Assembly: GCA_027081405.1 (NCBI GenBank)
Contig: JALWKO010000026.1
Span: 100-64,099, forward strand
Direction of reading: 5' to 3'
Length of the DNA: 64,000 nt
From: Campylobacteraceae bacterium
Lineage (GTDB): Bacteria > Campylobacterota > Campylobacteria > Campylobacterales > Sulfurovaceae
The position numbers were made by a program, and so were the translations under genes. Below the pieces are notes generated by a model. It was given only the letters and a program-made list of their open reading frames with translations, ran no database searches and was not told the origin of the DNA. This document shows, in pieces, positions 5,461-61,706 of this stretch (positions within the stretch are counted from its first letter, which is position 1; each line of letters opens with the position of its first letter).

Positions 5461-6540
5461 ATGGCACGCAAATGGTTCAAACTCACGGCCCTGGTCGGTG
5501 CGGTCGCACTCGCCGCGACCCCCGTAAGCGCCAAGAAGATCCGCTGGAGACTCGCCGAGACTTGGCCCTCCACCCTGACCCCTCTGGCCTCTCCTCCGGC
5601 CAAACTGGCCGCCTGGATGAAAGAGATGAGTGATGGCAAGTTCATCATCAAGGTCGAGGGCAAAGAGAAGCACAAAGCCCCGCTGGGTATCCTCGACATG
5701 GTCAAAAACGGCCAGTATCAGATGGGCCACAGTGGTTCGTACTACTGGAAAGGCAAAGACATCAACACCGTTTGGTTCACGACGGTTCCCTTCGGAATGA
5801 CCCCTTCCGAGCAGTATGCCTGGTTCTACTACGGAAACGGTATGAAATACATGAAGGAGGTCTACAGCAAATTCGGCGTCTACAGCTTCCCCGGCGGAAA
5901 TACCGGCAACCAGATGGGGGGATGGTTCCGCAAACCCATCAAAAGCGTCGACGACCTCAAAGGGCTCAAGATGCGGATCCCCGGACTGGCGGGTGAGGTG
6001 ATGGCAAAACTGGGTGTCAACGTGGTCAATATCCCCGCAGGAGAACTGTATACGGCACTCGATCGGGGAACCATCGACGCACTGGAATGGGTCGGACCCG
6101 GTATGGACATCAAGATGGGATTCTACAAGGTAGCCAAATACTACTACACCGGCTGGCACGAGCCTGCTAGTGAAATGCAGTTCCTGGTCAACAAAAAGGC
6201 CTTCGACAAACTCCCCAAAAAATATCAGACGATGCTGATCGTGGGGATGAAAGCGGCGGCGATGGATATGTATATCGAAAACTTCGCCGAATCGGTAGAT
6301 GCATGGCAGCGGATGAAAAAAGAACATCCCGAAATTCAGGTCAAAACCTTCCCCTTGCCGGTACTCAAAGCGCTCAAAAAGGCGGCAGACGAAGTGTATG
6401 ACGAATATGCAGCCAAGAACCCCAAGTTCAAGGAGATCCGCGACGACTACTTCTCGTATATGAAAAAAGCGCGGCAGTGGTCGATGATGAGTCAGTACTA
6501 CTATCTCCAGATGAGCAAAGAGCTGGGGATCACCAAGTAA
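5461..6540 (+). CDS. TRAP transporter substrate-binding protein (DctP-type family)
   Basis: 359 aa with a signal peptide and SD aaggag. Followed by DctQ and DctM homologues. Confidence 0.9.
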   Translation: MARKWFKLTALVGAVALAATPVSAKKIRWRLAETWPSTLTPLASPPAKLAAWMKEMSDGKFIIKVEGKEKHKAPLGILDMVKNGQYQMGHSGSYYWKGKDINTVWFTTVPFGMTPSEQYAWFYYGNGMKYMKEVYSKFGVYSFPGGNTGNQMGGWFRKPIKSVDDLKGLKMRIPGLAGEVMAKLGVNVVNIPAGELYTALDRGTIDALEWVGPGMDIKMGFYKVAKYYYTGWHEPASEMQFLVNKKAFDKLPKKYQTMLIVGMKAAAMDMYIENFAESVDAWQRMKKEHPEIQVKTFPLPVLKALKKAADEVYDEYAAKNPKFKEIRDDYFSYMKKARQWSMMSQYYYLQMSKELGITK

Positions 6541-6558
6541 CGAATGCTTTGGCGTTCG
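6541..6558 (+). terminator. weak hairpin after the TRAP binding-protein gene (cgaatgc-tttg-gcgttcg)
   Basis: 6 of 7 bp stem directly after the stop codon. Confidence 0.3.
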
Positions 6559-6560
6559 TT

Positions 6561-6660
6561 ACGTCATTGGTCACTGGTCATTGGTCATTGGGGGGGTAAG
6601 GCGTGGAAGCATGCTTCTACTCCATTTTCCCAAATGACCAATGACTAATGACGAATGACC
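6561..6660. repeat. long inverted repeat built of TTGGTCA/CCAATGA heptamer arrays
   Basis: Left arm is gtcattggtcactggtcattggtcattgggg. Right arm is cccaaatgaccaatgactaatgacgaatgac. About 35 nt separates them. Confidence 0.85.
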
Positions 6661-7214
6661 AAAATCCGAAGGGTTTTATCTTGCTGACAAAACTTGAAAA
6701 GGTGACCGACAAGTTCATCGACGGGGTGGGGTATCTCACCGGGATTCTGATGATCTGGCTGATACTTAATGTCGCCTGGGACGTAATGATGCGCTACGTC
6801 TTCCACGATAGTTCCATCGCCATGCAGGAGCTGGAGTGGCATACATTCGCTGTGGTCATGCTCTACGGGACCGGGTACGCTCTGCGTCACAACGCCCACG
6901 TGCGGGTCGATTTCCTCTATGACCGGCTCTCACCCAGGGCACAGGCATGGATCAATATCTTGGGGACGATCTTTTTTCTCCTCCCGGTAGCGGTGCTGGT
7001 GATCTACGGATCGTGGGATTTCGTGATGGATTCGTACACGTCGCACGAGATCAGCGACGATCCGGGAGGGCTCCCTTACCGTTGGGTAATCAAGGCACAG
7101 ATTCCATTGGCTTTTGCTTTTTTGATATTGTGCGCATTTAATTTCATCCTCCATTATGTCAACGTGCTCCGTGGAGTGGAGGATCCCCTGCCGATCGAGG
7201 AGGATGAACTATGA
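6648..7214 (+). CDS. TRAP transporter small permease (DctQ family)
   Basis: 188 aa with 4 predicted TM helices. The first ~5 codons lie in the heptamer array, so the true start may be downstream. Confidence 0.85.
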   Translation: MTNDQNPKGFILLTKLEKVTDKFIDGVGYLTGILMIWLILNVAWDVMMRYVFHDSSIAMQELEWHTFAVVMLYGTGYALRHNAHVRVDFLYDRLSPRAQAWINILGTIFFLLPVAVLVIYGSWDFVMDSYTSHEISDDPGGLPYRWVIKAQIPLAFAFLILCAFNFILHYVNVLRGVEDPLPIEEDEL

Positions 7215-8551
7215 TCGGACTGTGGATGTTTCTTGCGGCGTTGGTAATGCTGGTGATCGGCTATCCGGTCGCATTTACCTTCGGAGCGGTATCGCTCTAC
7301 TTCGGTGCTCTGGCGGCACTTTTTGAGTTATTGCCGGATGGAGGAGTGACACTGGCGGACTGGTGGGACGAATTCAATTCTATGTTCTCTATGATGCCGT
7401 TTCGGATCTACTCCATCATGACCAACAAGATCCTCATGGCGGTTCCGCTCTTCATTTTCATGGGGATCGTCCTACAAAAATCCCAGTTGGCCGAGCGGCT
7501 GCTGGAGAGTATGGGAACTCTGTTCGGGAAAGTCCGGGGAGGATTGGCGATCTCCACGGTGCTCATCGGGGCGTTGTTGGCGGCATCCACGGGGGTCGTG
7601 GGGGCTTCGGTGGTGGCGATGGGGGTGATCAGCCTCCCGATCATGCTCCGCCACGGATACGACAAACCCCTCTCCACCGGAACGATCTGTGCGGCGGGGA
7701 CTCTGGGGCAGATCATCCCCCCTTCGATCGTCTTGATCGTCCTGGCCGACGTGTTCCAGCTTCCGGTCGGAGATCTCTTCAAGGCAGCGATCCTACCGGG
7801 GATGGCGCTGGTAGGGGTCTATATCCTCTATATCCTCGTCCTTTCGTTTCTCAAACCCTCCGTCGCTCCGGCACTCGATCCCGAGGAGGGGGTGCGCTAC
7901 GGGGCGAGCGTCAAACGGGCTCTTGTCGCCATCATCCCCCCGCTGACTCTGATCGTACTGGTTTTGGGTTCGATCTTCGCCGGGATCGCCACCCCCACCG
8001 AATCGGCTTCGTTGGGCGCGTTGGGCAGCCTAGTGCTCGCGGCGTTGTATCGGAAACTCAGTTATGCCATGGTGCGGGATGCGGCACTCGAGACGGTCAA
8101 GACCACATCGATGGTTTTCGCGATTCTGGTAGGGGCGACGGCCTTTTCGATGGTCTTTGTCTACAGCGGTGCCGATGAGATCGTAGAACATTTCATGACC
8201 CAGCTGCCGGGTGAAAAGTGGGGATTCCTCCTTTTGACGATGGGGATCATCTTTTTCCTTGGATTTTTCATCGATTTCTTCGAAATCTCCTATATCGTCG
8301 TGCCGATTCTACTGCCGATCGCCCAGAAAATCGGTCTCGATCCCATGTGGTTCGCGATTCTGATCGCGCTCAATCTCCAAAGCTCTTTCCTCACTCCGCC
8401 CTTCGGGTTCAGCCTCTTCTACCTCAAAGGGGTCGCCCCGCCGGAGGTGAAGACCACCGAGATCTACCGGGGAGTCGTCCCATTCATTCTGCTGCAGATC
8501 CTCGTTTTGGCCTCCATTGTCTTCTTCCCTCACCTCTACGGGTTCAAATAG
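7211..8551 (+). CDS. TRAP transporter large permease (DctM family)
   Basis: 446 aa polytopic membrane protein. ATGA overlap with the DctQ gene. Confidence 0.93.
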   Translation: MIGLWMFLAALVMLVIGYPVAFTFGAVSLYFGALAALFELLPDGGVTLADWWDEFNSMFSMMPFRIYSIMTNKILMAVPLFIFMGIVLQKSQLAERLLESMGTLFGKVRGGLAISTVLIGALLAASTGVVGASVVAMGVISLPIMLRHGYDKPLSTGTICAAGTLGQIIPPSIVLIVLADVFQLPVGDLFKAAILPGMALVGVYILYILVLSFLKPSVAPALDPEEGVRYGASVKRALVAIIPPLTLIVLVLGSIFAGIATPTESASLGALGSLVLAALYRKLSYAMVRDAALETVKTTSMVFAILVGATAFSMVFVYSGADEIVEHFMTQLPGEKWGFLLLTMGIIFFLGFFIDFFEISYIVVPILLPIAQKIGLDPMWFAILIALNLQSSFLTPPFGFSLFYLKGVAPPEVKTTEIYRGVVPFILLQILVLASIVFFPHLYGFK

Positions 8552-8557
8552 CCGGGA

Positions 8558-8886
8558 TTTGAATGAGGAGCGAGGCGTTGGGCGTTAGGAGTGAGGAGTG
8601 AAGGGGCGCCGCGTGGCGGCGCGGTTTGAATGAGAAATGAGAAATGAGTATAGAAATGAGAAATTTTGAGGTGTTGCTGCGCAACGCTTTTGATGACGGA
8701 TTTTGGATTTTGGATGCTGAATTTCGGTGCGTTGCGTTGCAACGCGTATTGTTGGAGCGGGAATAAATTCCCGCACGGCAGAGCTAAAGCCCTACATCCA
8801 ATATACCAATAATGTCGCCGAAGGCGACACCTCTTACGACTATCGACTATCGACTAGTGACTAATGCCGTCGCCGAAGGCGACACC
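8558..8886 (+). repeat. mosaic repeat element, full copy (heptamer arrays plus fixed hairpins)
   Basis: Modules in order: GAATGAG/GAGTGAG/AAATGAG arrays, ggcgccgcgtggcggcgc, gttgctgcgcaacgc, TTGGATT array, gcgttgcgttgcaacgc, gcgggaataaattcccgc, GTCGCCGAAGGCGAC (8814 and 8869), CGACTAT array. Confidence 0.9.
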
Positions 8887-12493: not shown

Positions 12494-13003
12494 GTGGACG
12501 AGCGGAATTTCGAACGGGCCATCGTCGCGGTGTCGCTGCTGATCGTGGGGATCGGCATTTTCCGGGCGTTGCATCATGCTTCGGATCGGAAACATCCCTC
12601 GGCACCTCCTGCCGAAGAGCGAAACGTCTCGGTGGCATTTGTGCATCCTTCCGGGATCCGCCCCGACTCCCCCGAAGGGATCTACCGCTACGTAGTGGAC
12701 GTGATCGAGCACGGTTCGGCCCGCTTCCATTTCCCGGGTGGGACGATGGAAGGGGGATACCTCCCCCCCGCCGAGGCCCGCAAGGTGGCCTGCTACGTGC
12801 TGCAGCTCGGGGGACACCGCTGCCCCGTGCCGCCGTCGCCGGATGCGCAAATGTACTACACCGGCGCCTGTGCCGGATGCCACGGCAGCGATGGCAAGGG
12901 GCTCGGCGGCCGCTATCCCGACCTGACCCGTCCCCGGTTGCTGGGGATCGAGGAGGCGCTGCGGAAGCGCTCACTTTCCAGCGGTGGAAACGGGACGCAG
13001 TAG
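12494..13003 (+). CDS. membrane-anchored monoheme c-type cytochrome
   Basis: 169 aa. GTG start 5 nt after dctM, an N-terminal TM helix and a CAGCH motif. Confidence 0.6.
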   Translation: MDERNFERAIVAVSLLIVGIGIFRALHHASDRKHPSAPPAEERNVSVAFVHPSGIRPDSPEGIYRYVVDVIEHGSARFHFPGGTMEGGYLPPAEARKVACYVLQLGGHRCPVPPSPDAQMYYTGACAGCHGSDGKGLGGRYPDLTRPRLLGIEEALRKRSLSSGGNGTQ

Positions 13004-14431
13004 ATACGAAGGGCCCATATTGACGCTGTGGTAGACCGTCACGCCGTATTTGCGGACGTAGTATCGCAGCAGGAGCCGCTGCAGTGCGGGTTCGACGGAG
13101 GGGATGAACCAGCCGTCGTTGCTGATGGCGACGATCCGTTCGGGTCGGTCGGCATAGAGCCGTTCGCTGGTCGCTTCGTAGCATACCGCCGAACGCCAGC
13201 GTCTGCCTCCGATGGTGAAATCGGTCGGTCGGGACGCGGGGACGTAATCGGGCGCTCCGTCGAAAAAGATCCGGTTGATCCATTTCCCGGCCCAGCGGGG
13301 GAGGGGGTTGGTCTCCCCGAAGGGGACGAGGACGATTTTGTCGGCGACGGTGGCGTTCCCGTCATGGAAAAACCAGGCGGAGTTGCGGTTGACGCCCTTT
13401 TTCGTATCGTAATAGAGCGCCCCCAGGACGATATCGATCCGGTGGGAGCGCCGTTTGATCGCATCCAGAAGGGCGGGGTGGCGATTGAGGAAGAGGGGGA
13501 GGACCGATTCGGGGAGGATCACCAGCGAGGCGTTGCGCTCGATCGCCCGGTCGATCGCACCGAGGACCCCGTCGATCTGTCCGTTGAGGTTCGCGGGATC
13601 CCATTTGGCTTCGACCGGGACGCGGGTCGAGACCAGCTCCACCGCTCCGGTGGGATCGGCAGGGAGTGCCTCCACTTTCTGCGGGTGCCAGGTTGCGGCG
13701 AAAAGGAGCAGGACCAACACCCCTTCCCCCAGCCGATGCCGTGGGGCACGGCGATGGAGGATCATATCGCCCAACAGAAACGAAGCGCCCAGGAAAAGGG
13801 CGAAGCGGAGCTTGTCCACCCCGAAGGGGGTATGCACGAGGATCAGTTCGGGTTTGAACCAGTCGAAGCCGAAAGGGTGGACGTAGCTCATACCCAAAAG
13901 CGCCAGCGCTTTTGGGTATGAGCTACTAATGAGCAGTGAGCAGTGAGCAGTAAGCAGTTTCGGTATGCGTTGCTTTGCAACGCTCCTGTTCAAAGGGATA
14001 ATGTCGCGGACTCTCCCCAATGACCAATGACCAATGACCAATGACTTTTCTCTTGTGACTTGCAACCTGCGACCGAACCGTAGGCACCGACCGCCCAATC
14101 GTTCGGCGAGCCAGGCGAAGAGCCAGAAATAGATGCCGTAGACCAGCGCCACGGCGAGGACGACGAGGGGGATGACCCAGGGGTGGCCGTAGTGCAGGAA
14201 GCTCATCGCGATCCACCAGAACCAGAGCCCCCCGATCCCCAGTCCGAATCCGAACCACACCCTCCGGTCGCAGTGCGGCAGAAGGGCGAATACGGCGACG
14301 GCGGCGAGCGTTTCGAGAATCGGCAGAGGATGTCTCCACCACGCAAGATAGACGAAGAGCGAAGCGGCCAGAGCCAGAAGCCAGCCCGCTGTTATCCTCC
14401 CGGTGCTAAAATAGTGCGAAATTTTTCCCAT
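12971..14431 (-). CDS. lnt: apolipoprotein N-acyltransferase carrying an in-frame repeat insertion
   Basis: Nitrilase-type triad context (ILPESV, KIVLVPFGE, AVCYEAT) and an N-terminal TM domain. Start taken at MGKISHYF (ATG at 14431, SD ggag). The longer track ORF to 14740 overlaps yajC. Confidence 0.85.
   Translation of the reverse strand: MGKISHYFSTGRITAGWLLALAASLFVYLAWWRHPLPILETLAAVAVFALLPHCDRRVWFGFGLGIGGLWFWWIAMSFLHYGHPWVIPLVVLAVALVYGIYFWLFAWLAERLGGRCLRFGRRLQVTREKSLVIGHWSLGRVRDIIPLNRSVAKQRIPKLLTAHCSLLISSSYPKALALLGMSYVHPFGFDWFKPELILVHTPFGVDKLRFALFLGASFLLGDMILHRRAPRHRLGEGVLVLLLFAATWHPQKVEALPADPTGAVELVSTRVPVEAKWDPANLNGQIDGVLGAIDRAIERNASLVILPESVLPLFLNRHPALLDAIKRRSHRIDIVLGALYYDTKKGVNRNSAWFFHDGNATVADKIVLVPFGETNPLPRWAGKWINRIFFDGAPDYVPASRPTDFTIGGRRWRSAVCYEATSERLYADRPERIVAISNDGWFIPSVEPALQRLLLRYYVRKYGVTVYHSVNMGPSYLLRPVSTAGK
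13902..14095 (+). repeat. truncated mosaic repeat copy located inside the lnt coding sequence
   Basis: GCAGTGA array, gcgttgctttgcaacgc hairpin, four CCAATGA units and a gtgacttgcaacctgcgac tail. Borders are approximate. Confidence 0.8.
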
Positions 14432-14446
14432 CGTAAAGGATTCTCC

Positions 14447-14716
14447 ATGGCTCAAGGGGCATTGGCACAGTTTCTGCCGATCATTCTGCTTTTCGTGATT
14501 TTCTACTTTCTCATCATCCGGCCGCAGCAAAAACAGCAAAAGGCCCATCGTGAGATGATCGCGTCGCTCAAAAAAGGGGACCGGGTGGTTACCGCCGGGG
14601 GACTGATCGCCGAAGTGGTCAAGCCCGAGGAGGATTTTATCAAAATCAAACTCTCCGAAAATGTGATCGTCCGCATCGTCCCCACGTCGATCACCCGCAA
14701 ACTCAACGAAGCCTGA
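14447..14716 (+). CDS. yajC: preprotein translocase subunit YajC
   Basis: 89 aa with one TM helix and the motif [10 protein letters not shown]...GDRVVTAGG. Upstream of secD. Confidence 0.9.
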
Positions 14717-17276: not shown

Positions 17277-17307
17277 GGGTGAGGAGTGAGGAGTGAGGAG
17301 TGCGGAG
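17277..17307 (+). repeat. GAGTGAG heptamer array
   Basis: gggtgaggagtgaggagtgaggagtgcggag, directly after the secF stop. Confidence 0.85.
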
Positions 17308-18477: not shown

Positions 18478-19874
18478 TGCGCCTCGGAGTGCTTCTCGTC
18501 GCCCTCTGGGCGTGGGGGTGGGCACTGGTCCCCGCCGAAGTGGCGCAGTTCCTCCAGAGAGACGGGATCGATCCTTCGCAGGTGAGCCTGATCGTCGCCC
18601 CCACCAAAGGCTCCGAACCTCTGATGGTCCACCTCCCCGACGAACCCCGCCGCCCGGCGTCGGTGATCAAGCTCCTGACCACCTACGCCGCATTGCTGGA
18701 GCTCGGTCCCGATTTCCGCTGGCCGACCCGCTTTTTCGTCACCGGGCGGCTGCGCGGCGGGGTGTTGCGGGGGGATCTGATCGTCAAAGCCTACGGCGAT
18801 CCGACCCTCTCCCGGCGGGATCTGGACCGGATCGCAGAGCGGATCCGCCGGATGGGGATCCGCGAAATCACCGGCGATCTGATCGTCGACGAGAGCTTTT
18901 TCCGTACGGGATCGAAAATCAGTTCGGGGTTTGACAATCATCCCCACAGCGAGTACAACGCCATGCCCGAAGCGTTGATGTTCGAGGACCACCTCAGCAC
19001 CATCGTCGTCGATACCCGCGGCGGTGAGGCACGGGTACACAAAGGGATCCCCGATCCGGGATACCGGCTCCTCAACGAAGTGACGGTACGGAGCGACAAA
19101 CGGTGCCGCGGGCGTTACGGCTGGCCGGCGGTACGCTTCGAAGAAGAGGGGGATACTCCGATCGTCCGCGTGACGGGGACCCTCTCGAGCCGCTGCCGGA
19201 CCCCCCGGGTGATCCGACAGGTGATCGACCACCCCTACACCGCGTTCTACGGAGCCCTCAAAGAAGCGTTCGCAAAGAGAGGGATCGCCTTTTCGGGGCG
19301 CTTGCGGCTGGGGAAGGTTCCCGCCGGGGCCCGTCCTTTGCTGACCCACTACTCCCGCCCTTTGCTGCAGATTGTCGCCAAGACCAACAAGCACTCCAAC
19401 AACCTCTACGCCCGCCACATTTTCCTCCTCCTGGGGGCCAAACGCTACGGAGCTCCGGCCACGGTGGAGAAAGGGCGCAAAGCGGTGCGCGAGATCCTCG
19501 AATCACGCGGGATCCTCGACGATGCGACGGTGCTGGACAACGGGTGCGGACTGAGTCGCCGTACCCGCACCACCGCCCGAACCCTCTACCGGCTCTTAGA
19601 GGACGCCTATCGGCACTTTGCCTGGAGGTGGATGGGAGCCCTTTCGATCGCGGGGATCGACGGGACGCTGCGGCATCGCTTCGTCCGATCGCCGGCCCGC
19701 CGGCACGCCTGGATGAAGACCGGGACCCTCAAAGACGCCAAAAACATCGCCGGATACGTCAAAGGGCGCAGCGGCAGGCTCTATACGGTGGTGATCTTCT
19801 ACAACGGCCTCGCCCGCTGGAAAGGGCGGCAGTTCGAAGATCAGCTCGTCGAGTGGATCGTGAAAAACAAATGA
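18477..19874 (+). CDS. D-alanyl-D-alanine carboxypeptidase/endopeptidase (PBP4, peptidase S13)
   Basis: 465 aa with SxxK (SVIK), SxN (HSNN) and KTG (MKTGT) motifs. Signal peptide present. Confidence 0.85.
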   Translation: MRLGVLLVALWAWGWALVPAEVAQFLQRDGIDPSQVSLIVAPTKGSEPLMVHLPDEPRRPASVIKLLTTYAALLELGPDFRWPTRFFVTGRLRGGVLRGDLIVKAYGDPTLSRRDLDRIAERIRRMGIREITGDLIVDESFFRTGSKISSGFDNHPHSEYNAMPEALMFEDHLSTIVVDTRGGEARVHKGIPDPGYRLLNEVTVRSDKRCRGRYGWPAVRFEEEGDTPIVRVTGTLSSRCRTPRVIRQVIDHPYTAFYGALKEAFAKRGIAFSGRLRLGKVPAGARPLLTHYSRPLLQIVAKTNKHSNNLYARHIFLLLGAKRYGAPATVEKGRKAVREILESRGILDDATVLDNGCGLSRRTRTTARTLYRLLEDAYRHFAWRWMGALSIAGIDGTLRHRFVRSPARRHAWMKTGTLKDAKNIAGYVKGRSGRLYTVVIFYNGLARWKGRQFEDQLVEWIVKNK

Positions 19875-19900
19875 GGAATGAGGAATGAGAAATGAGAAAT
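19868..19900 (+). repeat. AAATGAG/GAATGAG heptamer array
   Basis: caaatgaggaatgaggaatgagaaatgagaaatg. The first unit supplies the PBP4 stop codon. Confidence 0.85.
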
Positions 19901-19949
19901 GTTTGATTTCCTGTTTTGAATTCCCGATTTCCTCCTCTCAAGGGGAGAA

Positions 19950-21080
19950 ATGAATTTCGAAACCTATCCGTTTGAAAAACTGACCCGGCTTCTCGAAGGG
20001 ATCGTGCCAAACGGTGCGTTCGACCCGATGAGCCTCACGATCGGGGAGCCCCAGTTCGAGACGCCGGCGTTCATCCGGCAAGAACTCTGCGACGCCTCGG
20101 CGCAGCTGAACAAATACCCCAAGACGGCGGGGGAAGCGTACCTCAAAGTGGCGATGCTGCGGTATTTGAAGGAACGCTTCTCCCTCGAGCTGACGTCGGA
20201 TCAGCTCATCCCCACCTTCGGAACCCGGGAGCTGCTGTTCAATTTCCCCCAGTTCTATCTCCACGGCAGACCCGATCCGGCGATGGCCTTCCCCAACCCT
20301 TTCTACCAGATCTACGAAGGGGCGGCGATCGCCGCGGGGGCGCGGATCGTCCACCTCGATCTGACCCCCGAAAACGGTTTTCAGCCCCCGATGGACGAAA
20401 CGCTGCTGCGGGAGTGCGATCTGGTGATCCTCAACACCCCCAACAACCCCACCGCGTCGGTGATCCCCTTCGAGCGGATGCAAGAGTGGGTGGAGCTCTC
20501 ACTCAAGTACGATTTTCTGCTGCTCAACGACGAGTGCTACGTCGATTTGTGGATGGACGAGCCGCTCCCTTCCCTTCTGGAGGCGAGCGTCGCCGCGGGC
20601 AACCCCGGGTTCCGCAACGTGGTCGTGGTCAACTCGGTTTCCAAACGCTCCAGCGCCCCGGGGCTGCGCAGCGGGTTCATCGCCGGGGACCGGGAGGTGT
20701 TGCGGGAGTATCTGCGCTACCGCACCTACGTCGGATGCGCCTCCCCGCTCCCTCTGCAGCGGGCCGCGGCGGCGGCCTGGGGTGATCAGGACCACGTGGA
20801 GACTTTCCGCCGGAAATATCGGCGCAATTTCGAGCTGGCGCGTGAGATCCTGGGGGTCGAACCTCCCGAAGCCACCTTCTATGTCTGGCTGGAGGTGGGC
20901 GACGAGCGGACCTTTACCCGGGAGCTCTATCGGCGGTATAATCTCAAAGTCCTCCCCGGTTCTTTCCTGGGGCGAAACGGTGCGGGCGAAGGCTTCGTCC
21001 GCCTGGCACTGGTCTATGAAGAAGAGCCGATGCGGGAGGCGCTGGAGAGGGTGGCGGCTTTTTTGAAAGATTTTGGATGA
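19950..21080 (+). CDS. class I PLP aminotransferase (succinyldiaminopimelate/aspartate aminotransferase-like)
   Basis: 376 aa with a PLP-lysine context NSVSKRSSAPGLRSGF. Confidence 0.85.
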   Translation: MNFETYPFEKLTRLLEGIVPNGAFDPMSLTIGEPQFETPAFIRQELCDASAQLNKYPKTAGEAYLKVAMLRYLKERFSLELTSDQLIPTFGTRELLFNFPQFYLHGRPDPAMAFPNPFYQIYEGAAIAAGARIVHLDLTPENGFQPPMDETLLRECDLVILNTPNNPTASVIPFERMQEWVELSLKYDFLLLNDECYVDLWMDEPLPSLLEASVAAGNPGFRNVVVVNSVSKRSSAPGLRSGFIAGDREVLREYLRYRTYVGCASPLPLQRAAAAAWGDQDHVETFRRKYRRNFELAREILGVEPPEATFYVWLEVGDERTFTRELYRRYNLKVLPGSFLGRNGAGEGFVRLALVYEEEPMREALERVAAFLKDFG

Positions 21081-21114
21081 TGGATTTTGGATTTTGGATT
21101 TTGGATTTTGGATT
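21071..21114 (+). repeat. TTGGATT heptamer array (about 6 units)
   Basis: ttttggatgatggattttggattttggattttggattttggatt. Overlaps the last codons and the stop of the aminotransferase gene. Confidence 0.9.
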
Positions 21115-21152: not shown

Positions 21153-21779
21153 ATGATGAATCAAAACAACAGAGAAGAGGCGATCGATCTGGAAGCGCTC
21201 AAAAAAGACCCCCAGTTTCAGGAGAACCTGAAGCGGCTGGAGGGGGAGATGAAAGCCGAGCGCTCCATCGCCAAAGGGTATCAGCTGCTGGATGCGAAGC
21301 TCTTGATGGAGGCGGAGCAGGAGGAGATCAACGAGATCTTCACCTTCATCGTCAATGAAGCCTTCGATCGTCTGGCGGAGCTGCTCAGCCGGGGGGAAAA
21401 ATTCGACATGGCCGATCCGGAGCAGTGGGCCACGGCCCGGGCGGTCTACGAGCACGGGATCCAGCGCTACAGCGAAAACGACCTCAAGGGGGCCAGGGAG
21501 ATCTTTTTGATCCTCTATTACCTCATCACCGAGAAGGAGTTGCGCGACGCAATGATGATCCACTCGGCGGCGGTGGCGGCGGGGCACGACTTTGACAGTT
21601 TCATCGAGAATTTGGCCGACGTGCGGTCGATCAACCCCAACGACGCCACCGCCTTTTTCATCACCAGTTTCGTCCAGCCGCCGGATATTCTGCTGCAGAT
21701 GTTCGCCAAAGAGGTGGCCGAAGGGGAGGCTTTGCTGGCGAAAATGGAGGAGAACAGCAAAGCTTCGAATGAGGAATGA
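21153..21779 (+). CDS. hypothetical acidic helical protein
   Basis: 208 aa with good coding periodicity. No family recognised. The C-terminal SNEE and the stop are encoded by a GAATGAG array. Confidence 0.6.
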   Translation: MMNQNNREEAIDLEALKKDPQFQENLKRLEGEMKAERSIAKGYQLLDAKLLMEAEQEEINEIFTFIVNEAFDRLAELLSRGEKFDMADPEQWATARAVYEHGIQRYSENDLKGAREIFLILYYLITEKELRDAMMIHSAAVAAGHDFDSFIENLADVRSINPNDATAFFITSFVQPPDILLQMFAKEVAEGEALLAKMEENSKASNEE

Positions 21780-21878
21780 GGAATGAGGAATTCGGAATTC
21801 GGGCGTATCGAGGTACGCCGCTTCGATACTATCGACTATCGACTAACGACTAGCGACTGTGCCGCCTCCGGCGGCACC
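21767..21878 (+). repeat. partial mosaic repeat (GAATGAG array, CGACTAT array, gtgccgcc-tcc-ggcggcac hairpin)
   Basis: Read directly between the hypothetical gene and murC. Confidence 0.85.
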
Positions 21879-23206: not shown

Positions 23207-23460
23207 AGGGGGGAGTGAGAGTCGGTAGTCGTGGCGCCGTTGGCACAGTCATTGGTCATTGGTCATTGGTCATTGGGGGCAGGGCTTCAGCCCTGCATGC
23301 GGGACTAAAGTCCCGCCTCCAAAAGAAAGCGTTGCGAAGCAACACCCCAAAACCATTCCTCATTAAAAAATTGTTATTAGTTGCTGGTTATTCATTACTA
23401 GTTTCCAATCTTCGGTTCCTCATTCCTCATTTCTCATTCCTCACTCCTCACTCGCACGGA
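23207..23460 (-). repeat. mosaic repeat element, full copy in reverse orientation
   Basis: The reverse complement shows the same module order as 8558-8886: AATGAG arrays, gttgcttcgcaacgc, ggaggcgggactttagtcccgc, gcagggctgaagccctgc, four CCAATGA units. Confidence 0.9.
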
Positions 23461-25679: not shown

Positions 25680-25971
25680 AGAATGAGGAACGAGGAGTGA
25701 GGGATCTTTGGGCGCCGTGATACGGCGCGTTTTGAATGAGAAATGAGAAAATAGAAATGAGAAATTTCGGTGCGTAGCGTTCGCTACGCGCTCAATGTTG
25801 GATTTTGGATTCTGGATGTTGGATTGCGGGGTGTTGCGTTGCAACACATATTTTTGGAGGCGGGAATTCATTCCCGCACTGCAGGGCTAATGCCCTGCAT
25901 CCAGTACACCAATGTACCAATAGACCAATGACGTCGCCGAAGGCGACATCACTTGTGACTATTTTTTATCT
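25680..25971 (+). repeat. mosaic repeat element, full copy
   Basis: Same ordered modules, ending in GTCGCCGAAGGCGAC at 25933. Confidence 0.9.
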
Positions 25972-26077
25972 CTTCATTTGTTTTTCTTTGTTCGCGCGAT
26001 AAAGAAAAACGAAACGAAGCAAAGAAAAAGAAAACGCGAGGGACTGGCGTCTTGGTGGAGATGCCATGCGTGGTTGA
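25972..26077 (+). repeat. ~106 nt purine-rich two-hairpin module, copy 1
   Basis: Near-identical to 35144-35249 (cttcatttgtttttctttgttcgcgcgaYaaagaaaaacgaaacgaagcaaagaaaaagaaaacgcgagg...). Confidence 0.85.
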
Positions 26078-27869: not shown

Positions 27870-28198
27870 AGGAACTGGTGGAGCGGCTCGCCCGCCGGGG
27901 GATCGTCTGCCGGCGTCTGGAACCCTATCCCCTGTCCCGACTGGGGAGTCGCAGACGGATCGACCTCTACCTGGGGGTGGGGACCGACGGGTACTACTGC
28001 ACGGTGGTGCATATCGCACGCAAAAGCCGCATTTTGCGCAAGGACGCCCAGATCTTTCAGGATCTCCGCCATGCGATGGAGGAGAAGGAAGGGCACCATA
28101 TTCCCCGGGCCTACACCCTCATCGACGCGCCGCTGTGTTCCAAGGCCAAAACACAGCTGGAAGAGTGGGGGTGGAAGGTAATTATGGGTAACGGATAA
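27866..28198 (+). CDS. hypothetical 110 aa protein, translationally coupled to the recombinase gene
   Basis: ATGA overlap with the recombinase stop. Coding-like composition. No family recognised. Confidence 0.5.
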   Translation: MKELVERLARRGIVCRRLEPYPLSRLGSRRRIDLYLGVGTDGYYCTVVHIARKSRILRKDAQIFQDLRHAMEEKEGHHIPRAYTLIDAPLCSKAKTQLEEWGWKVIMGNG

Positions 28199-28202
28199 CG
28201 AG

Positions 28203-28368
28203 CAACTAGTAACTAGGAATGAGGAATGAGGAATTTTGGGGCGCTGCTGCGCAACGCGTGTTTATGGAGGCGGGACTTCATTCCCGCAAATTGTAGGCTC
28301 AAAGCCCAGCTCCCAATGACCAATGACTAATGACTAGTGACCCATAACGTCGCCGAAGGCGACACTTC
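28203..28368 (+). repeat. mosaic repeat element, compact full copy
   Basis: GAATGAG array, gcgctgctgcgcaacgc, ggaggcgggacttcattcccgc, ggctcaaagccc, CCAATGA array, GTCGCCGAAGGCGAC at 28349. Confidence 0.9.
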
Positions 28369-28599
28369 TTAGCCCTCTTCTTTGGACTTTTTGTACCGCA
28401 GGATCATCATTAGCGCTTCGTCCTTGAGGAGGAGTTTCTCTTTTTTGAGCGTTTCGATCTCCGGATCGCTCATGGCGATTTCACCTTCTTCTGCTTTGCG
28501 GATCGTCTCGTCCAGTTCGTTGTGTTTCTCGAAAATTTTGGTGAAGTGTGCGTCTTTTTGTTTGAGTTCGCTGATTTCATGGCGGTATTCCGAAAGCAT
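28369..28599 (-). CDS. DUF465 (YdcH-like) small coiled-coil protein
   Basis: 76 aa MLSEYRHEISELKQKDAHF... Strong SD aaggagg 5 nt upstream of the ATG at 28599. Confidence 0.7.
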   Translation of the reverse strand: MLSEYRHEISELKQKDAHFTKIFEKHNELDETIRKAEEGEIAMSDPEIETLKKEKLLLKDEALMMILRYKKSKEEG

Positions 28600-28910: not shown

Positions 28911-28944
28911 ATTCCTCATTCCTCATTCCTCATTCCTCATTCCC
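28911..28944 (-). repeat. GAATGAG heptamer array (4-5 units, minus-strand sense)
   Basis: attcctcattcctcattcctcattcctcattccc, directly after the argJ stop. Confidence 0.9.
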
Positions 28945-34689: not shown

Positions 34690-35143
34690 TGATGGGGAAT
34701 GGAGAATTGAGGATGGAGAATTGAGGGGGCGTTCGATGGAGGCGTTTTGAATGAGAAATGAGAAATGAGAAATTTTGGGGCGCCGCAATGCGGCGCGGTT
34801 GGATGTTGGATTGCGGGGCGTTGTTTCACAACGCGTACTTTTGGAGGCGGGACCTCAGTCCCGCAATGCAGGGCTAAGTTGCTCCCAATGACTCTTTTAA
34901 TGAATAGCGAAGAGTGAAGAGTGAAGAATTGCGGTGTGCCGCACGGCGGTGCGATTTGATGGTGGATGTTGAATGTTGAATTTTGGATGATGGATTAAGG
35001 GGCGTTGCTTTGCAACGCGTTTTCAAACGTCAAAGAGGATCGAAGCCCCGTTCAAACGACAAACGACATACCCCCTAATGACCAGTGACCAATGACGTCG
35101 CCGAAGGCGACACTTCTTGCGACTTCCGGCTCAATGTTTTTAC
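34690..35143 (+). repeat. two tandem mosaic repeat copies
   Basis: Same ordered modules appear twice. Exact GTCGCCGAAGGCGAC at 35097. Confidence 0.9.
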
Positions 35144-35249
35144 CTTCATTTGTTTTTCTTTGTTCGCGCGACAAAGAAAAACGAAACGAAGCAAAGAAAA
35201 AGAAAACGCGAGGTACTGGCGTCTTGAAGAAGATGCCATGTGTGGTTGA
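35144..35249 (+). repeat. ~106 nt purine-rich two-hairpin module, copy 2
   Basis: Near-identical to 25972-26077. Most differences fall in a hairpin loop. Confidence 0.85.
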
Positions 35250-35454
35250 ATAAAAGATAGAAATGAGAAATCTCGGTGCGTTGCTGCGCAACGCTTTTTT
35301 TTGGAGGCGGGAATTCAGTCCCAGGATGAAGGGCTAACTTGCTCCCAATGACAAGTGACCAATGACGAATGACAAATATCGTCGCCGAAGGCGACACGTC
35401 TTGCGACTTGCGACGTGAGGCCCGTAGGGCCGTGCTTGCGACTTAAGAGGGAGA
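35250..35454 (+). repeat. mosaic repeat element, third copy in this spacer
   Basis: AAATGAG units, gcgttgctgcgcaacgc, ggaggcgggaattcagtccc, CCAATGA-type array, GTCGCCGAAGGCGAC at 35381, CTTGCGA array. Confidence 0.9.
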
Positions 35455-41318: not shown

Positions 41319-41396
41319 AGTGAAATGAGGAATGAGGAATGAGTAATGAGTAATGAGTAATGAGTAACGGGCGATGGGTAACGAAGAATGAGAAAT
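41319..41396 (+). repeat. AAATGAG/GAATGAG/TAATGAG heptamer array (about 9 units)
   Basis: gagtgaaatgaggaatgaggaatgagtaatgagtaatgagtaatgagtaac... Confidence 0.9.
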
Positions 41397-50876: not shown

Positions 50877-50956
50877 GAGTGAGGAGTGAGGAATGAGGAG
50901 TGAGGAACCGATTTTGAAACTCTTCATTCTTTCCTCTTCCCTCTTCACTTTTCACT
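50877..50956. repeat. head-to-head heptamer arrays (GAGTGAG/GAATGAG, then CTCTTCA-type)
   Basis: gagtgaggagtgaggaatgaggagtgaggaa ... ctcttcattctttcctcttccctcttcacttttcac. Confidence 0.8.
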
Positions 50957-50978
50957 TGTAGGCGGAAAACCGCCTACA
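50957..50978 (-). terminator. hairpin tgtaggcgg-aaaa-ccgcctaca overlapping the glcD stop codon
   Basis: Perfect 9 bp stem. Confidence 0.5.
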
Positions 50979-52356
50979 ACCCCATCTTGCCGGGATTGAG
51001 GATCCCGTTGGGGTCGAAGGCGTGTTTGATCTTCCGGAAAAGCTCCAGTTCGGCGGGGGTGAAGGCGATCTCCATGAATTCGGCTTTGCTCAGGCCGATC
51101 CCGTGTTCGCCGCTGAGGGTGCCCCCCATGTCGACCACGAGCCGGAAGATCTCCCGGATCGCCTTGTGGCCGTTTTCGAGCTGTTCGGGGTCGCTGCCGT
51201 CGACCATGACGTTGACGTGGATGTTGCCGTCACCGGCGTGCCCGAAGCAGGGGACCACCAGGCCGTATTTCTCCCCGATGGCGTAGATCCGCTCCAGCGC
51301 TTCGGGGAGTTTGCTCCGGGGGACCGAGATGTCTTCGTTGAGCTTTTTGCTCCCGTACATGGTGATCGAAGGGGAGGCGCCCCGGCGGGCTTTCCAGATC
51401 TCCTCCCGCTCGGCGGGATCTTCGGCGACGCGGAACTCCTGGGCCCCGTTTTCCCGGAAGGATTTTTCGAGGATTTTCAGCTGAAACTCGATCTCTTCGG
51501 GGACGTTACCGTCCACGTCTCCCACCAGCAGGGCGCCCGCCTCTTCGGGGAGGGAGATCCCCAGCTTCTCTTTGACCGCTTTGACCACCAGCGCGTCGAG
51601 GAACTCCATCGCCACGGGGTTGGCGCCGTTTGCCAGCGATTTGAACACGGCGTTCATCGCCGCTTCGACATCGGGGAAGATCCCCATGTAGGATTTGGCG
51701 TAGCGGGGTTTGGGGAGGAGTTTGAGGGTGATTTCGGTGATCACCGCCAAGGTCCCTTCGCTGGCGATGAGGATCCCCGCGACGTTGTATCCGGCCACGT
51801 CCTTGATGGTCCGTTTCCCCGCGCGGATGATCTCTCCATTGGGGAGGACCGCCCGCAGCGCCATGACGAAATCCTTGGTCAGGCCGTATTTGGCCGCCCG
51901 CATCCCTCCGGCGTTTTCGCTGACGTTTCCGCCGATGGTGGAGTACTCCTCGCTGGCCGGATCGGGGGGATAGAACAGCCCCATGGCTTCCACGTGGCGC
52001 TGGAGGTCCTTGTTGATCACGCCGGGCTGGACGACGGCGAGCATGTTTTCCCGGTCGATTTCGAGGATTTGGTTCATGTGCCGCTCGAGCGCCAGGACGA
52101 TCCCCCCGTTCACCGGGAGGGCGCCGCCGGTGAAACCGCTGCCGGCTCCCCGGGGGACGATGGCGATGCGGTGTTCGTCGCAGTAGCGCAGCACGCGGCT
52201 GACGTCTTCTTCGTTCCGGGGGAAGACCACCGCGTCGGGTTCGTAACGCTCTCTCGTGGCGTCGTAGCTGTAGGCGACGCGGTGGGCCTTGTCGGAATGG
52301 ACGTTCTCCTCACCCACGATGGAGGCGAGGGCCTGGATATGCTTGGGATCGATCAC
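50974..52356 (-). CDS. glcD: FAD-linked oxidase (glycolate oxidase GlcD / D-lactate dehydrogenase family)
   Basis: 460 aa with an FAD-binding PCMH domain (IVPRGAGSGFTGG) and the C-terminal motif GTLSGEHGIG. Confidence 0.9.
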   Translation of the reverse strand: MIDPKHIQALASIVGEENVHSDKAHRVAYSYDATRERYEPDAVVFPRNEEDVSRVLRYCDEHRIAIVPRGAGSGFTGGALPVNGGIVLALERHMNQILEIDRENMLAVVQPGVINKDLQRHVEAMGLFYPPDPASEEYSTIGGNVSENAGGMRAAKYGLTKDFVMALRAVLPNGEIIRAGKRTIKDVAGYNVAGILIASEGTLAVITEITLKLLPKPRYAKSYMGIFPDVEAAMNAVFKSLANGANPVAMEFLDALVVKAVKEKLGISLPEEAGALLVGDVDGNVPEEIEFQLKILEKSFRENGAQEFRVAEDPAEREEIWKARRGASPSITMYGSKKLNEDISVPRSKLPEALERIYAIGEKYGLVVPCFGHAGDGNIHVNVMVDGSDPEQLENGHKAIREIFRLVVDMGGTLSGEHGIGLSKAEFMEIAFTPAELELFRKIKHAFDPNGILNPGKMGL

Positions 52357-61647: not shown

Positions 61648-61706
61648 AGCGTTGTGAAGCAACGCCTACCAAAATTTCTCATTTTTCATTCCTCATTCCT
61701 CATTCG
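61648..61706 (-). repeat. partial mosaic repeat in reverse orientation
   Basis: gcgttgtgaagcaacgc followed by ttctcatttttcattcctcattcctcattc. Confidence 0.8.

What the first reader, a model, noticed from the sequence alone, without database searches (positions are those of the whole stretch)
13884..13925. A 20 bp perfect inverted duplication of lnt coding sequence marks one insertion junction
tagctcatacccaaaagcgc (13884-13903) and gcgcttttgggtatgagcta (13906-13925) are perfect reverse complements separated by 2 nt. The left arm is native lnt sequence, encoding ALLGMSY on the minus strand. The right arm is its inverted copy, read through as SSYPKAL, and it abuts the repeat insertion. An inverted rather than direct duplication of flanking target sequence is not the usual transposase footprint. 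It points to a hairpin- or template-switch-type insertion mechanism. It also puts a very stable hairpin inside the lnt mRNA.
Basis: seen in the sequence. Interest (0 to 1): 0.65.

Follow-up and report, generated by a model that had tools for sequence, protein, structure and literature searches.

The report
Flank-copied hairpin beside heptamer repeats
A perfect 44-base hairpin inside an intact lipoprotein-processing gene (lnt) was made by copying the gene's own codons backwards up to the edge of a 7-base tandem repeat. The same pairing of repeat and flank-copied hairpin recurs at this site across a whole bacterial family and in other genes and phyla, which gives a first mechanistic handle on these enigmatic heptamer repeats.

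Summary
The arms are 21 nt (13883-13903 and 13906-13926) with a 2-nt spacer, and this is by far the longest hairpin in the window. It lies in frame in lnt, next to a copy of a composite heptamer/hairpin repeat.

- The gene-downstream arm (LLGMSY) is conserved native sequence. The other arm is its inverted copy and abuts the heptamer array.
- The copy occupies native codon positions (a transmembrane-helix start, K-A core) rather than being extra DNA.
- The hairpin goes with the heptamer array, not with the composite element as a whole.

At the same lnt codons, 20 of 75 Sulfurovaceae orthologues carry their own palindrome (score ≥9, runs of 9-23 nt), including the finished Nitratifractor salsuginis genome. 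There are at least 7 arm sequences, two pairing registers and strictly Watson-Crick pairs. All but two directly abut a heptamer array. Array-less orthologues have only a 4-7-nt core.

Flush flank-derived palindromes also sit beside heptamer arrays in other genes, including in-frame cases in Segatella copri ugd and an HD-domain gene. They are almost always on the 3' side of the pyrimidine-rich strand.

Best explanation: DNA-level fold-back (template-switch) copying that perfects a native quasi-palindrome up to the array edge. I rate it a new variant of a known kind, of moderate to high interest.

The parts
12971..14431 (-). lnt (apolipoprotein N-acyltransferase), 486 aa, intact ORF that reads through the insert and both palindrome arms
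   Evidence: ORF listing. NCBIfam NF008934 scores 409 bits and TIGR00546 scores 153 bits, above its cutoff. The AlphaFold model has pLDDT 84, and its best Foldseek hits are E. coli and P. aeruginosa Lnt structures at TM 0.65-0.68.
13883..13903 (.). Array-distal arm, the native template arm. On the minus strand it encodes A-L-L-G-M-S-Y of the helix just before the HPFGFDW motif.
   Evidence: L178 and S182 are invariant or nearly invariant in the 22-sequence alignment. Residues 171-181 form a confident helix in the model.
13904..13905 (.). 2-nt spacer (CA on the + strand) at the symmetry axis
   Evidence: The axis falls at the same place (pairing register i+j = 65) in 11 orthologues with a perfect run of at least 9 nt.
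13906..13926 (.). Array-proximal arm, an inverted copy of the native arm. It is read as S-S-Y-P-K-A-L. The inner part (K-A) sits on conserved native codons; the outer part overwrites the start of the helix.
13928..13958 (-). Heptamer array, about 4.1 units. It reads CTGCTCA in gene sense and TGAGCAG on the + strand. It is the terminal module of the insert and lies 1 nt from the palindrome.
   Evidence: TRF.
13967..13983 (.). Small hairpin module hp1 (GCGTTGC ttt GCAACGC), translated as part of NRSVAKQRIP
   Evidence: The same module, read in the same frame, occurs in Lnt of several other species.
14017..14045 (-). Second heptamer array, 29 nt. It reads CCAATGA on the + strand and GTCATTG in gene sense, translated as VIGHWSL.
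14052..14072 (-). Three degenerate CTTGCGA-type heptamers (CTTGTGA CTTGCAA CCTGCGA)
   Evidence: Sequence; alignment to elements at 34950 and 35240.
13927..14095 (-). The whole in-frame repeat insert. The E110-to-K174 linker is 63 aa here against 13 aa in minimal orthologues, a net gain of 150 nt. The insert is predicted to be disordered.
   Evidence: pLDDT below 50 at residues 135-168.

Best explanation
The palindrome is a DNA-level product of fold-back (intrastrand template-switch) synthesis.

The lnt helix codons K-A-x-G-L-L are natively a short quasi-palindrome (AAAGCn..nGCTTT). I propose the following sequence of events. A nascent strand that has copied the native LLGMSY codons snaps back on this core. 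It then uses itself as template and re-writes the opposite side as the exact reverse complement, as far as the edge of the adjacent heptamer array. The overwritten codons (now SSYP) are tolerated because they only have to provide the hydrophobic start of a transmembrane helix.

The event is coupled to the heptamer array. It happens on the side from which a polymerase copying the pyrimidine-rich array strand enters the array, and it has recurred many times in Sulfurovaceae lnt and occasionally in other genes.

Shown:
- One arm is native and the other is its copy.
- The copy sits on native positions.
- The palindrome is associated with arrays, lies flush with them, and has a fixed polarity relative to them.
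- It has formed repeatedly, in two pairing registers.
- Pairing is strictly Watson-Crick.

Inferred:
- The fold-back or template-switch chemistry itself.
- That polymerase stalling at the array triggers the event.
For: 1. Native versus copy. The downstream arm encodes conserved LLxMSY, and the upstream arm's amino acids are dictated by it: SSY pairs with GMSY, and SSW with A/TMSY.

2. Array-less orthologues (minimal 53-aa linker) have only the 4-7-nt core. 17 of 28 array-bearing orthologues have palindromes scoring at least 9, against 2 of 47 array-less ones (Fisher p = 8e-8).

3. Long runs occur only in pairing registers 65 and 66. The maximum run in the 14 slid registers is 6.

4. Re-formation after insertion. 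L045 (register 65, K-A) and L023/L025/L065 (register 66, K-S) share the same 72-aa linker with hp1 plus array, yet differ in symmetry axis. Register-66 lineages have A175 changed to S or V, and L008/L011 have K174 changed to R.

5. Compensations run in both directions. Between L025 and L065, a synonymous AGC/AGT difference in the native arm is matched by M/I in the copy. Between the window and L007, a silent CCA/CCC difference in the copy is matched by L/W in the native arm. The window and N. salsuginis differ by 4 compensated pairs.

6. The stems contain 299 Watson-Crick pairs, 1 G.T pair and 6 other mismatches across 20 lineages. This fits DNA templating, not RNA-structure selection.

7. Generality. 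Among 427 arrays, 32 have flush palindromes where 2.2 are expected. Away from lnt there are 17 where 2.0 are expected (p = 8e-11). 29 of the 32 lie on the 3' side of the pyrimidine-rich strand.

8. A second intragenic case shows the same logic. In Segatella copri ugd, native K-E-N before IPxLF became E-K-N, the exact complement of the V-L-F codons, flush with an in-frame 29-nt array.

9. Template switching is a documented way to create perfect hairpins and apparent compensatory changes in one step (PMC8794818).
Against: - No event has been seen in progress, and no closely related pair with an empty and a filled site was found.
- Why a heptamer array should provoke template switching is unexplained; the stall or triplex idea is conjecture.
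- The flush junction, the constant polarity and the discrete ends of the arrays (TCTT...CACT, modal 29 nt) fit an insertion-coupled process equally well.
- In Segatella copri the palindrome is old. One clade carries an uncorrected mismatch, so there is no sign of ongoing re-homogenisation there.
- Only about 3% of (CACTCTT)n arrays have such a palindrome.
- Phylogenetic non-independence inflates the lnt counts.
Confidence: 0.5

Rival explanations
1. Insertion-coupled footprint. The machinery that installs heptamer arrays or composite elements processes the target through a hairpin or self-primed 3' end. Each insertion is therefore born with an inverted copy of its 3' flank, and the copies later decay.
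For: - The proximal arm is flush with the array in nearly every case, and the polarity is constant at 29:3.
- Arrays behave as discrete units with fixed end phases and a modal length of 29 nt, as expected for inserted or templated units rather than local slippage.
- There is no direct target duplication.
- The far arms are unique functional sequence: RBS plus ATG of a pgsA-like gene, a holA-like gene and mutS2, and coding sequence of ugd and an HD-domain gene.
Against: - Most arrays have no palindrome, and outside lnt there is no tail of half-decayed ones. Scores are at most 6 or at least 10.
- In lnt and ugd the 'copy' occupies native codon positions rather than adding length.
- In the 57-aa-linker lnt types the net gain is 12 nt against a roughly 30-nt array.
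- Lineages that inherit one and the same insert have palindromes in different registers.
- The symmetry axis is pinned to the native K-A-x-G-L-L core in all lineages.
Confidence: 0.27
2. A selected structure. The hairpin, as DNA or in the mRNA, has a function and is kept by selection, with true compensatory evolution. Possible functions are as a recognition or anchor structure for the array system, a translational or RNase III control point in lnt, or an SD/AUG-sequestering operator upstream of other genes.
For: - Perfect 15-23-nt stems persist or recur in lineages whose Lnt is only about 40-55% identical.
- Amino-acid changes at near-invariant residues are accepted in favour of pairing: K174R, A175S and L to W.
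- Several array-adjacent hairpins sequester the SD and start codon.
- The mRNA stem is very stable, at -36 kcal/mol.
Against: - There is 1 G.U pair among 300 paired positions, and mismatches are not wobble-biased.
- The two registers are incompatible with descent of one helix.
- Many array-bearing lineages let the stem decay: L010 versus L012, L008, L065, L048 and the S. copri VIF clade.
- The same feature occurs in unrelated coding contexts (lnt, ugd, an HD-domain protein) where no common RNA function is plausible.
- There is no Rfam match.
Confidence: 0.15
3. Pre-existing hairpins are merely the preferred landing sites of the arrays, as REPs or terminators are for some IS elements and group II introns. 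On this view no copying is involved.
For: - Arrays alternate with small hairpins throughout the window.
- Two of the window's flush hairpins (6537-6562 and 50956-50979) resemble element modules or terminator-like stems, so they need not be flank copies.
- The three palindromes on the 5' side look like ordinary terminators.
Against: For lnt and ugd, array-less orthologues lack the long palindrome and carry different codons in the proximal arm. At minimum, a perfecting step is associated with the array.
Confidence: 0.06
4. Chance or an assembly artefact.
For: Perfect palindromes can be produced by chimeric assembly of metagenomes.
Against: - Shuffles expect 0 matches.
- Three independent assemblies agree base for base.
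- A finished isolate genome has the homologous structure.
- The ORF stays in frame in all 75 orthologues examined.
Confidence: 0.01

Closest known systems
Template-switch mutation, also called quasi-palindrome correction (Ripley model; E. coli quasi-palindrome hotspots; Mönttinen & Löytynoja 2022, PMC8794818)
   Same: An imperfect inverted repeat is converted in one step into a perfect one. This produces clustered substitutions in one arm, apparent compensatory changes and strictly Watson-Crick stems.
   Different: Here the event is tied to an adjacent heptamer array, with which it is flush and to which it has a fixed polarity. It recurs at the same codons of a protein-coding gene across a bacterial family, in two registers. 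It overwrites near-invariant residues. No such coupling to tandem heptamers is described in the papers I could read.
Cyanobacterial STRR heptamer arrays with small dispersed hairpin repeats (Mazel 1990 and Elhai 2008, both from memory and not held in the library), and TAACTGA arrays of Beggiatoaceae, Cyanobacteria and Bacteroidetes (PMC4679880)
   Same: Short tandem heptamers (about 3-6 units) occur in many sequence variants. They are mostly intergenic and often lie just upstream of start codons. They are interleaved with small GC-rich hairpins and are occasionally found inside ORFs. Their mechanism of spread is unknown.
   Different: The hosts are different: Campylobacterota (Sulfurovaceae) and Segatella. 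To my knowledge, the palindrome derived from the flank at the array's 3' edge has not been reported for those systems.
Rickettsia palindromic elements (RPE; Ogata et al. 2000, from memory) and other intragenic small mobile repeats (PMC2759123)
   Same: A dispersed repeat is inserted in frame in an otherwise conserved gene. It is translated and tolerated in a loop, and the orthologue alignment shows the extra segment.
   Different: RPEs carry their own palindrome. Here the large palindrome is made from host codons, and the element is built of heptamer arrays.
P nucleotides and hairpin-intermediate transposition (V(D)J recombination, hAT elements)
   Same: An inverted copy of the flanking end lies between the flank and the inserted DNA.
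   Different: P tracts are contiguous with no spacer and are usually 1-4 nt long. Here the arms are 8-23 nt with 0-8-nt unpaired centres fixed on a native core, and the copy replaces native positions. No such enzyme was identified here.
REP/REPIN-RAYT elements (PMC3116915)
   Same: Both are short palindromes associated with dispersed repeats. The arm here happens to begin with GTAG.
   Different: REP arms have the same sequence at all copies. This palindrome is unique in the window and locus-specific in every lineage.

Membership tests
Template-switch / quasi-palindrome correction | The ancestral state is an imperfect inverted repeat at the same place | tested here: met
   Array-less Lnt orthologues carry only AAAGC(n)..(n)GCTTT, 4-7 nt. 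Native ugd K-E-N..x-L-F codons would also be partly complementary, inferred from the protein alignment only.
Template-switch / quasi-palindrome correction | One arm carries clustered changes that equal the reverse complement of the other arm, which is unchanged | tested here: met
   The downstream arm encodes conserved LLxMSY. The upstream arm differs from array-less orthologues at many positions and is the exact complement.
Template-switch / quasi-palindrome correction | Strict Watson-Crick complementarity, with no wobble tolerance | tested here: met
   299 Watson-Crick pairs, 1 G.T pair and 6 other mismatches in 20 lineages.
Template-switch / quasi-palindrome correction | Replacement without a net change in length at the converted tract | tested here: inconclusive
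   The copy arm aligns to native codon positions in lnt and ugd. However, the neighbouring array changes the length, so the tract itself cannot be isolated.
Classical transposon insertion | Direct target-site duplication flanking the element | tested here: not met
   There is no direct repeat bracketing 13927-14095. Only a 6-nt inverted match (CCGAAC/GTTCGG) lies at the far junction.
REP/REPIN-RAYT | The same palindrome sequence at many loci | tested here: not met
   The arm is unique in the window even with 3 mismatches. Arms differ between lineages.
REP/REPIN-RAYT | An associated RAYT (Y1 transposase) gene | not tested
   The window's ORFs were not screened for Y1 transposases.
In-frame intragenic palindromic repeat (RPE-like) | A member of a dispersed repeat family inserted in frame, with the ORF and fold preserved | tested here: met
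   The insert aligns to 4 other window copies. The ORF is intact, the Lnt fold is recovered, and the insert is disordered.
STRR-type heptamer arrays with interleaved hairpins | Tandem 7-nt units of several sequence types alternating with small stem-loops, mostly intergenic | tested here: met
   TRF lists more than 30 period-7 arrays in the window. Hairpins of 6-8 bp sit 0-8 nt from array ends. N. salsuginis shows the same arrangement.
STRR-type heptamer arrays with interleaved hairpins | Cyanobacterial host | tested here: not met
   The best Lnt relatives are Nitratifractor and Sulfurovum. Synteny with N. salsuginis (lnt next to yajC-secD-secF and an aminotransferase gene) was also seen.
Known structured RNA | A match to a curated RNA family | tested here: not met
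   The Rfam E-value scan of 13500-14500 gave only one chance-level hit elsewhere in that stretch.
P-nucleotide / hairpin-opening junction | A palindrome contiguous across the axis, with no spacer and the axis at the broken end | tested here: not met
   Spacers are 2-8 nt in all lineages but one (L006, 0 nt). The axis lies inside conserved codons.

The most novel reading that the evidence does not exclude
The flush, polar, strictly Watson-Crick palindrome copied from the flank is the molecular footprint of how heptamer arrays are installed or replicated. These arrays are discrete STRR-like units of about 29 nt with fixed ends. On this reading, an unknown enzyme or a structure-induced polymerase arrest extends a folded-back 3' end at the array's 3' edge. 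The same process would then be the birth mechanism of the small hairpin modules that alternate with arrays in these composite repeats. It would operate in at least two phyla (Campylobacterota and Bacteroidota) and can rewrite codons of conserved genes.
Probability: 0.25. Interest if true: 0.85.

Novelty: new variant of a known kind. Interest (0 to 1): 0.7.

Why it matters
- Tandem heptamer arrays have been known since 1990 in cyanobacteria, and later in giant sulfur bacteria and Bacteroidetes, but no mechanism of origin or spread is known. A reproducible junction feature with fixed polarity is the kind of scar that can constrain that mechanism. It can be tested in a cultured organism, Nitratifractor salsuginis, and in gut Segatella.
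- It is a natural, repeated example of template-switch-type copying that creates 15-23-bp perfect hairpins inside a conserved membrane-enzyme gene. The copying overrides near-invariant residues. This matters for how 'compensatory' covariation is read: covariation here does not imply a selected RNA structure.
- It shows that Lnt tolerates 4 to 50 extra residues and a rewritten helix start at one cytoplasmic loop.
- Array-adjacent hairpins that bury the SD and AUG of pgsA-, holA- and mutS2-like genes may affect their expression.

Tried and rejected
- The Rfam scan of the region found nothing relevant.
- A sequence search of Lnt against PDB chains found nothing. The fold search was needed instead.
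- A scan of viral contigs for 'array + hp1' gave 0 hits, so there is no sign of a phage vehicle.
- The public runs are held only as contigs, so population heterogeneity (array length, empty sites) could not be read. One 324-nt 'skip' contig and several loose ends belong to other co-occurring species.
- No close relative of the window's lnt exists in the protein collection; the best hit is about 55% identical. A true empty-site comparison was therefore impossible.
- The attempt to get an empty site from Segatella ugd also failed. All 12 orthologues I read out of the 120 best (92-100% identical) carry the array, and nearly all 120 have the array-bearing length. Only distant array-less Ugds could be compared.
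- The other flush hairpins in the window (6537-6562 at the dctP-like stop codon, 50956-50979 at the glcD stop codon, 8543-8563) first looked like further flank copies. They resemble element modules (the GTCGCCgaaGGCGAC and TTGTAGGC..GCC hairpins) or contain element sequence, so I do not count them as evidence.
- I looked for microhomology between the heptamer unit and the outer end of the arm, which would mark a return point for the switching strand. It was inconsistent across lineages.
- I considered that K-rich residues upstream of the arrays might be the displaced native K-A. They are more simply the loop's positive residues.
- Phase variation by 7-nt slippage was considered. All 75 orthologues are in frame, so there is no evidence for it.
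- The Elhai 2008 paper could not be fetched and is cited from memory only.
Full report
**Observation.**
The repeat is one base longer on each side: arms 13883-13903 and 13906-13926, 21 nt, perfect, with a 2-nt spacer. It is the longest short-loop inverted repeat in the 64 kb; the runner-up has 15 nt with a mismatch.

It lies in the minus-strand ORF 12971..14431, which reads ...LLISSSYPKALALLGMSYVHPFGFDWF.... That ORF is lnt. NCBIfam NF008934 scores 409 bits and TIGR00546 scores 153 bits. The AlphaFold model has pLDDT 84, and its best structural matches are E. coli and P. aeruginosa Lnt at TM 0.65-0.68. As a single strand the site folds at -36.4 kcal/mol as RNA and -23.9 kcal/mol as DNA, both more than 8 SD beyond shuffles. 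Contigs from three independent vent metagenome runs cover 13500-13983 or 13500-14041, across both arms, without a single difference.

**Context.**
The window comes from a Nitratifractor/Sulfurovum-like member of the Campylobacterota. The best Lnt hits are about 55% identical, and the gene order matches N. salsuginis.

The window is full of tandem heptamer arrays, more than 30 by TRF. They alternate with 6-8-bp GC-rich stem-loops such as GCGTTGCnnnGCAACGC and GTCGCCgaaGGCGAC. Together these form a composite element of about 170-200 bp present at least five times. The lnt insert 13927-14095 is one copy.

In lnt the insert is in frame and free of stops. It lengthens the linker between E110 and K174 from 13 aa in minimal orthologues to 63 aa, and it is predicted to be disordered. 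The residues encoded by the palindrome (about 168-182) form a confident helix.

**Which arm is native.**
In a 22-sequence alignment, K174, L178 and S182 are invariant or nearly so, as is the following HPFGFDW motif. The + strand left arm (LLGMSY) is therefore native. The right arm encodes SSYP-KAL. Its inner 7 nt fall on the conserved K-A codons, and its outer 14 nt fall where array-less orthologues have other hydrophobic residues, for example PAVFI-KA or QALFI-KA. The 'copy' thus overwrites native positions rather than being added.

**Orthologues.**
I fetched 80 orthologous loci plus the finished N. salsuginis DSM 16511 genome. The site could be anchored in 75 sequences, counting the window.

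- 20 of the 75 have a palindrome scoring at least 9 centred on the same K-A-x-G-L-L codons. Examples are L006 (23 nt, no spacer), N. salsuginis (20 nt), L007 (19 nt), L071 (16 nt) and several with 15 nt.
- There are at least seven different arm sequences. In all but two lineages a heptamer array abuts the upstream arm directly. The array units include ATTCTCA, CATTCTC, CAACATC, CACTCTT, CACTATT, CACTTCT, CACTCAT, ACCTCCT, GCCTCCT and CCCTGCT.
- Orthologues with the minimal 53-aa spacing have no array and no palindrome beyond a 4-7-nt core.
- The 2x2 table is 17/11 versus 2/45, p = 8e-8.

N. salsuginis has array plus palindrome but none of the rest of the composite element. The partner of the palindrome is the heptamer array.

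**Not one conserved helix.**
Long perfect runs occur only in two adjacent pairing registers. Eleven sequences have a run of at least 9 in register i+j = 65, and five in register 66. None of 14 slid registers exceeds 6.

Register-66 lineages have A175 replaced by S or V, and L008/L011 have K174 replaced by R. L045 (register 65) and L023/L025/L065 (register 66) belong to neighbouring clades and share the same 72-aa linker with hp1 plus array. At least one palindrome was therefore re-made after the insert was in place.

Compensations between relatives run both ways. A synonymous AGC/AGT difference in the native arm is matched by M/I in the copy (L025 versus L065). A silent CCA/CCC difference in the copy is matched by L/W in the native arm (window versus L007). 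The window and N. salsuginis differ by four compensated pairs.

Across 20 stems there are 299 Watson-Crick pairs, one G.T pair and six other mismatches. Several lineages show plain decay (L010, L008, L065, L048). This is the signature of DNA-templated copying followed by neutral decay, not of a selected RNA fold. Rfam has no match.

**Beyond lnt.**
A metagenome scan for (CACTCTT)3 returned 120 loci from gut, rumen, marine and vent samples.

The arrays behave as discrete units. 61 of 116 end in ...CACT, 56 begin with TCTT..., and the modal length is 29 nt.

Four of the 116 have a flush palindrome of at least 10 nt on the 3' side.
- In a Sulfurovaceae-like contig (L119), the order is hp1, array, AAGCATTTCTTCTCC gaca GGAGAAGAAATGCTT. 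The far arm is the SD, the ATG and the second codon of a pgsA-like gene.
- In L095, the palindrome lies before a holA-like ATG.
- Two are in frame inside genes: Segatella copri ugd (L150; TGAAAAGAAC atcccg GTTCTTTTCA, read as EKN-IP-VLF) and an HD-domain gene (L184).

Away from lnt there are 17 where 2.0 are expected (p = 8e-11). 29 of the 32 lie on the 3' side of the pyrimidine-rich strand, and the three exceptions look like ordinary terminators.

For ugd, distant array-less orthologues read EGAIK-ENIPxLF, whereas S. copri reads EGAI[GHNGDTKQLDSSLFTLHSSL]EKNIPVLF. Native K-E-N has become E-K-N, the exact complement of the V-L-F codons. This is the same logic as in lnt: an apparently native quasi-palindrome perfected up to the array edge. 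In the S. copri clade with V-I-F the stem has one uncorrected mismatch.

**Mechanism.**
The best-supported reading is fold-back (intrastrand template-switch) synthesis nucleated on a native quasi-palindromic core. It is a documented route to perfect hairpins and one-step 'compensation' (PMC8794818). Here it is coupled to the adjacent heptamer array.

The polarity means that the palindrome lies on the side from which a polymerase using the pyrimidine-rich array strand as template enters the array. A stall at the array edge, followed by snap-back, trimming and re-synthesis, would explain both the flush boundary and the strict complementarity. That last step is inference.

It explains the flush junction, the polarity and the discrete array ends. 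It fits poorly with replacement of native positions, with re-formation in different registers on an inherited insert, and with the absence of palindromes at most arrays. A selected hairpin function is less likely, for the reasons given above. Chance and artefact are excluded.

**Comparison and novelty.**
The parts are individually known: template-switch hairpin creation, in-frame palindromic repeats such as RPEs, and STRR-type heptamer arrays with interleaved hairpins (PMC4679880; Mazel 1990 and Elhai 2008 from memory). I found no description of heptamer arrays in Sulfurovaceae. Nor did I find a description, for any heptamer system, of a polar palindrome derived from the flank at the array edge. 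I therefore class this as a new variant of a known kind.

The less conservative reading is that this is the footprint of the unknown process that makes or moves heptamer arrays. I give that about one chance in four.

Noticed in passing
window, whole; e.g. 6563-6662, 8564-8863, 17279-17307, 19869-19901, 21069-21114, 21767-21858, 23248-23453, 25681-25930, 28197-28342, 28911-28943, 34692-35414, 41320-41396, 50877-50955, 61674-61705: There are more than 30 tandem heptamer arrays of many unit types (GTCATTG, GAATGAG, TGAGGAG, GGATTTT, CGACTAT, CTTGCGA and others). They are typically 29-33 nt long and alternate with 6-8-bp GC-rich hairpins. The same system is present in Nitratifractor salsuginis (L081). 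I found no published description for Sulfurovaceae.
   Followed up: partly
window 13927-14095, 23225-23460 (rc), 28205-28375, 34950-35135, 35240-35450: A composite element of about 170-200 bp with a fixed module order: GAATGAG-type array, GCGTTGCnnnGCAACGC, GGAGGCGGGA..TCCCG hairpin, GGGCT..AGCCC hairpin, CAATGAC array, GTCGCCgaaGGCGAC, CTTGCGA heptamers.
   Followed up: partly
window 21767-21779, 19869-19874, 21069-21080, 61686-61688: Arrays overlap the last codons of long ORFs and appear to supply their stop codons (TGA within GAATGAG-type units). This suggests that insertions clip the 3' ends of genes.
   Followed up: no
Lnt alignment A1; loci L010, L012, L013, L023, L025, L040, L045, L065: The small hairpin module GCGTTGCnnnGCAACGC is translated in the same frame, as N[RKE]S[VI]A[KQT]Q[RLH][IK]P, inside Lnt of several species, including Sulfurovum lithotrophicum (P0048).
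   Followed up: partly
L071 and L073, about 55 nt upstream of the HPF codons: A different small hairpin (GGTGTTGTG gggg CACAACACC, read as WCCGGTTP / WCCQETTP) is inserted in frame in the same lnt loop. It is reminiscent of cyanobacterial small dispersed repeats.
   Followed up: no
L082-L201 (metagenome loci): (CACTCTT)n arrays in gut, rumen, marine and vent contigs have fixed end phases (TCTT...CACT) and a modal length of 29 nt. They are often preceded by ...GCAAAT or ...CTGAT. This points to a discrete templated or mobile unit shared across phyla.
   Followed up: partly
L150, L202-L204 (Segatella copri ugd): A 60-nt in-frame insert (GHNGDTKQLD + SSLFTLHSSL) is present in all 12 orthologues I read from the 120 best (92-100% identical). 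Distant Ugd proteins lack it.
   Followed up: yes
L119 5977-6050 (rc); L081 798-816; L095 1195-1260 and 3261-3300: Array-adjacent hairpins bury the Shine-Dalgarno sequence and/or the start codon of pgsA-like, mutS2 and holA-like genes. In L119 the stem is 16 bp and perfect. They may affect translation.
   Followed up: no
window 25980-26010 and 35149-35185: A second repeated palindrome family (TTTGTTTTTCTTTGT tcgcgcg ACAAAGAAAAACGAA) that is unrelated to the heptamers.
   Followed up: no
window 6563-6662: Two CAATGAC arrays in inverted orientation flank a 12-nt perfect palindrome (GAAGCATGCTTC) between the dctP-like and dctQ-like genes.
   Followed up: no
window 14073-14078 / 14101-14106: At the other junction of the lnt insert, a 6-nt inverted match (CCGAAC / GTTCGG, 22 nt apart) pairs the end of the element with the native A-E-R codons. 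It is too short to judge.
   Followed up: partly
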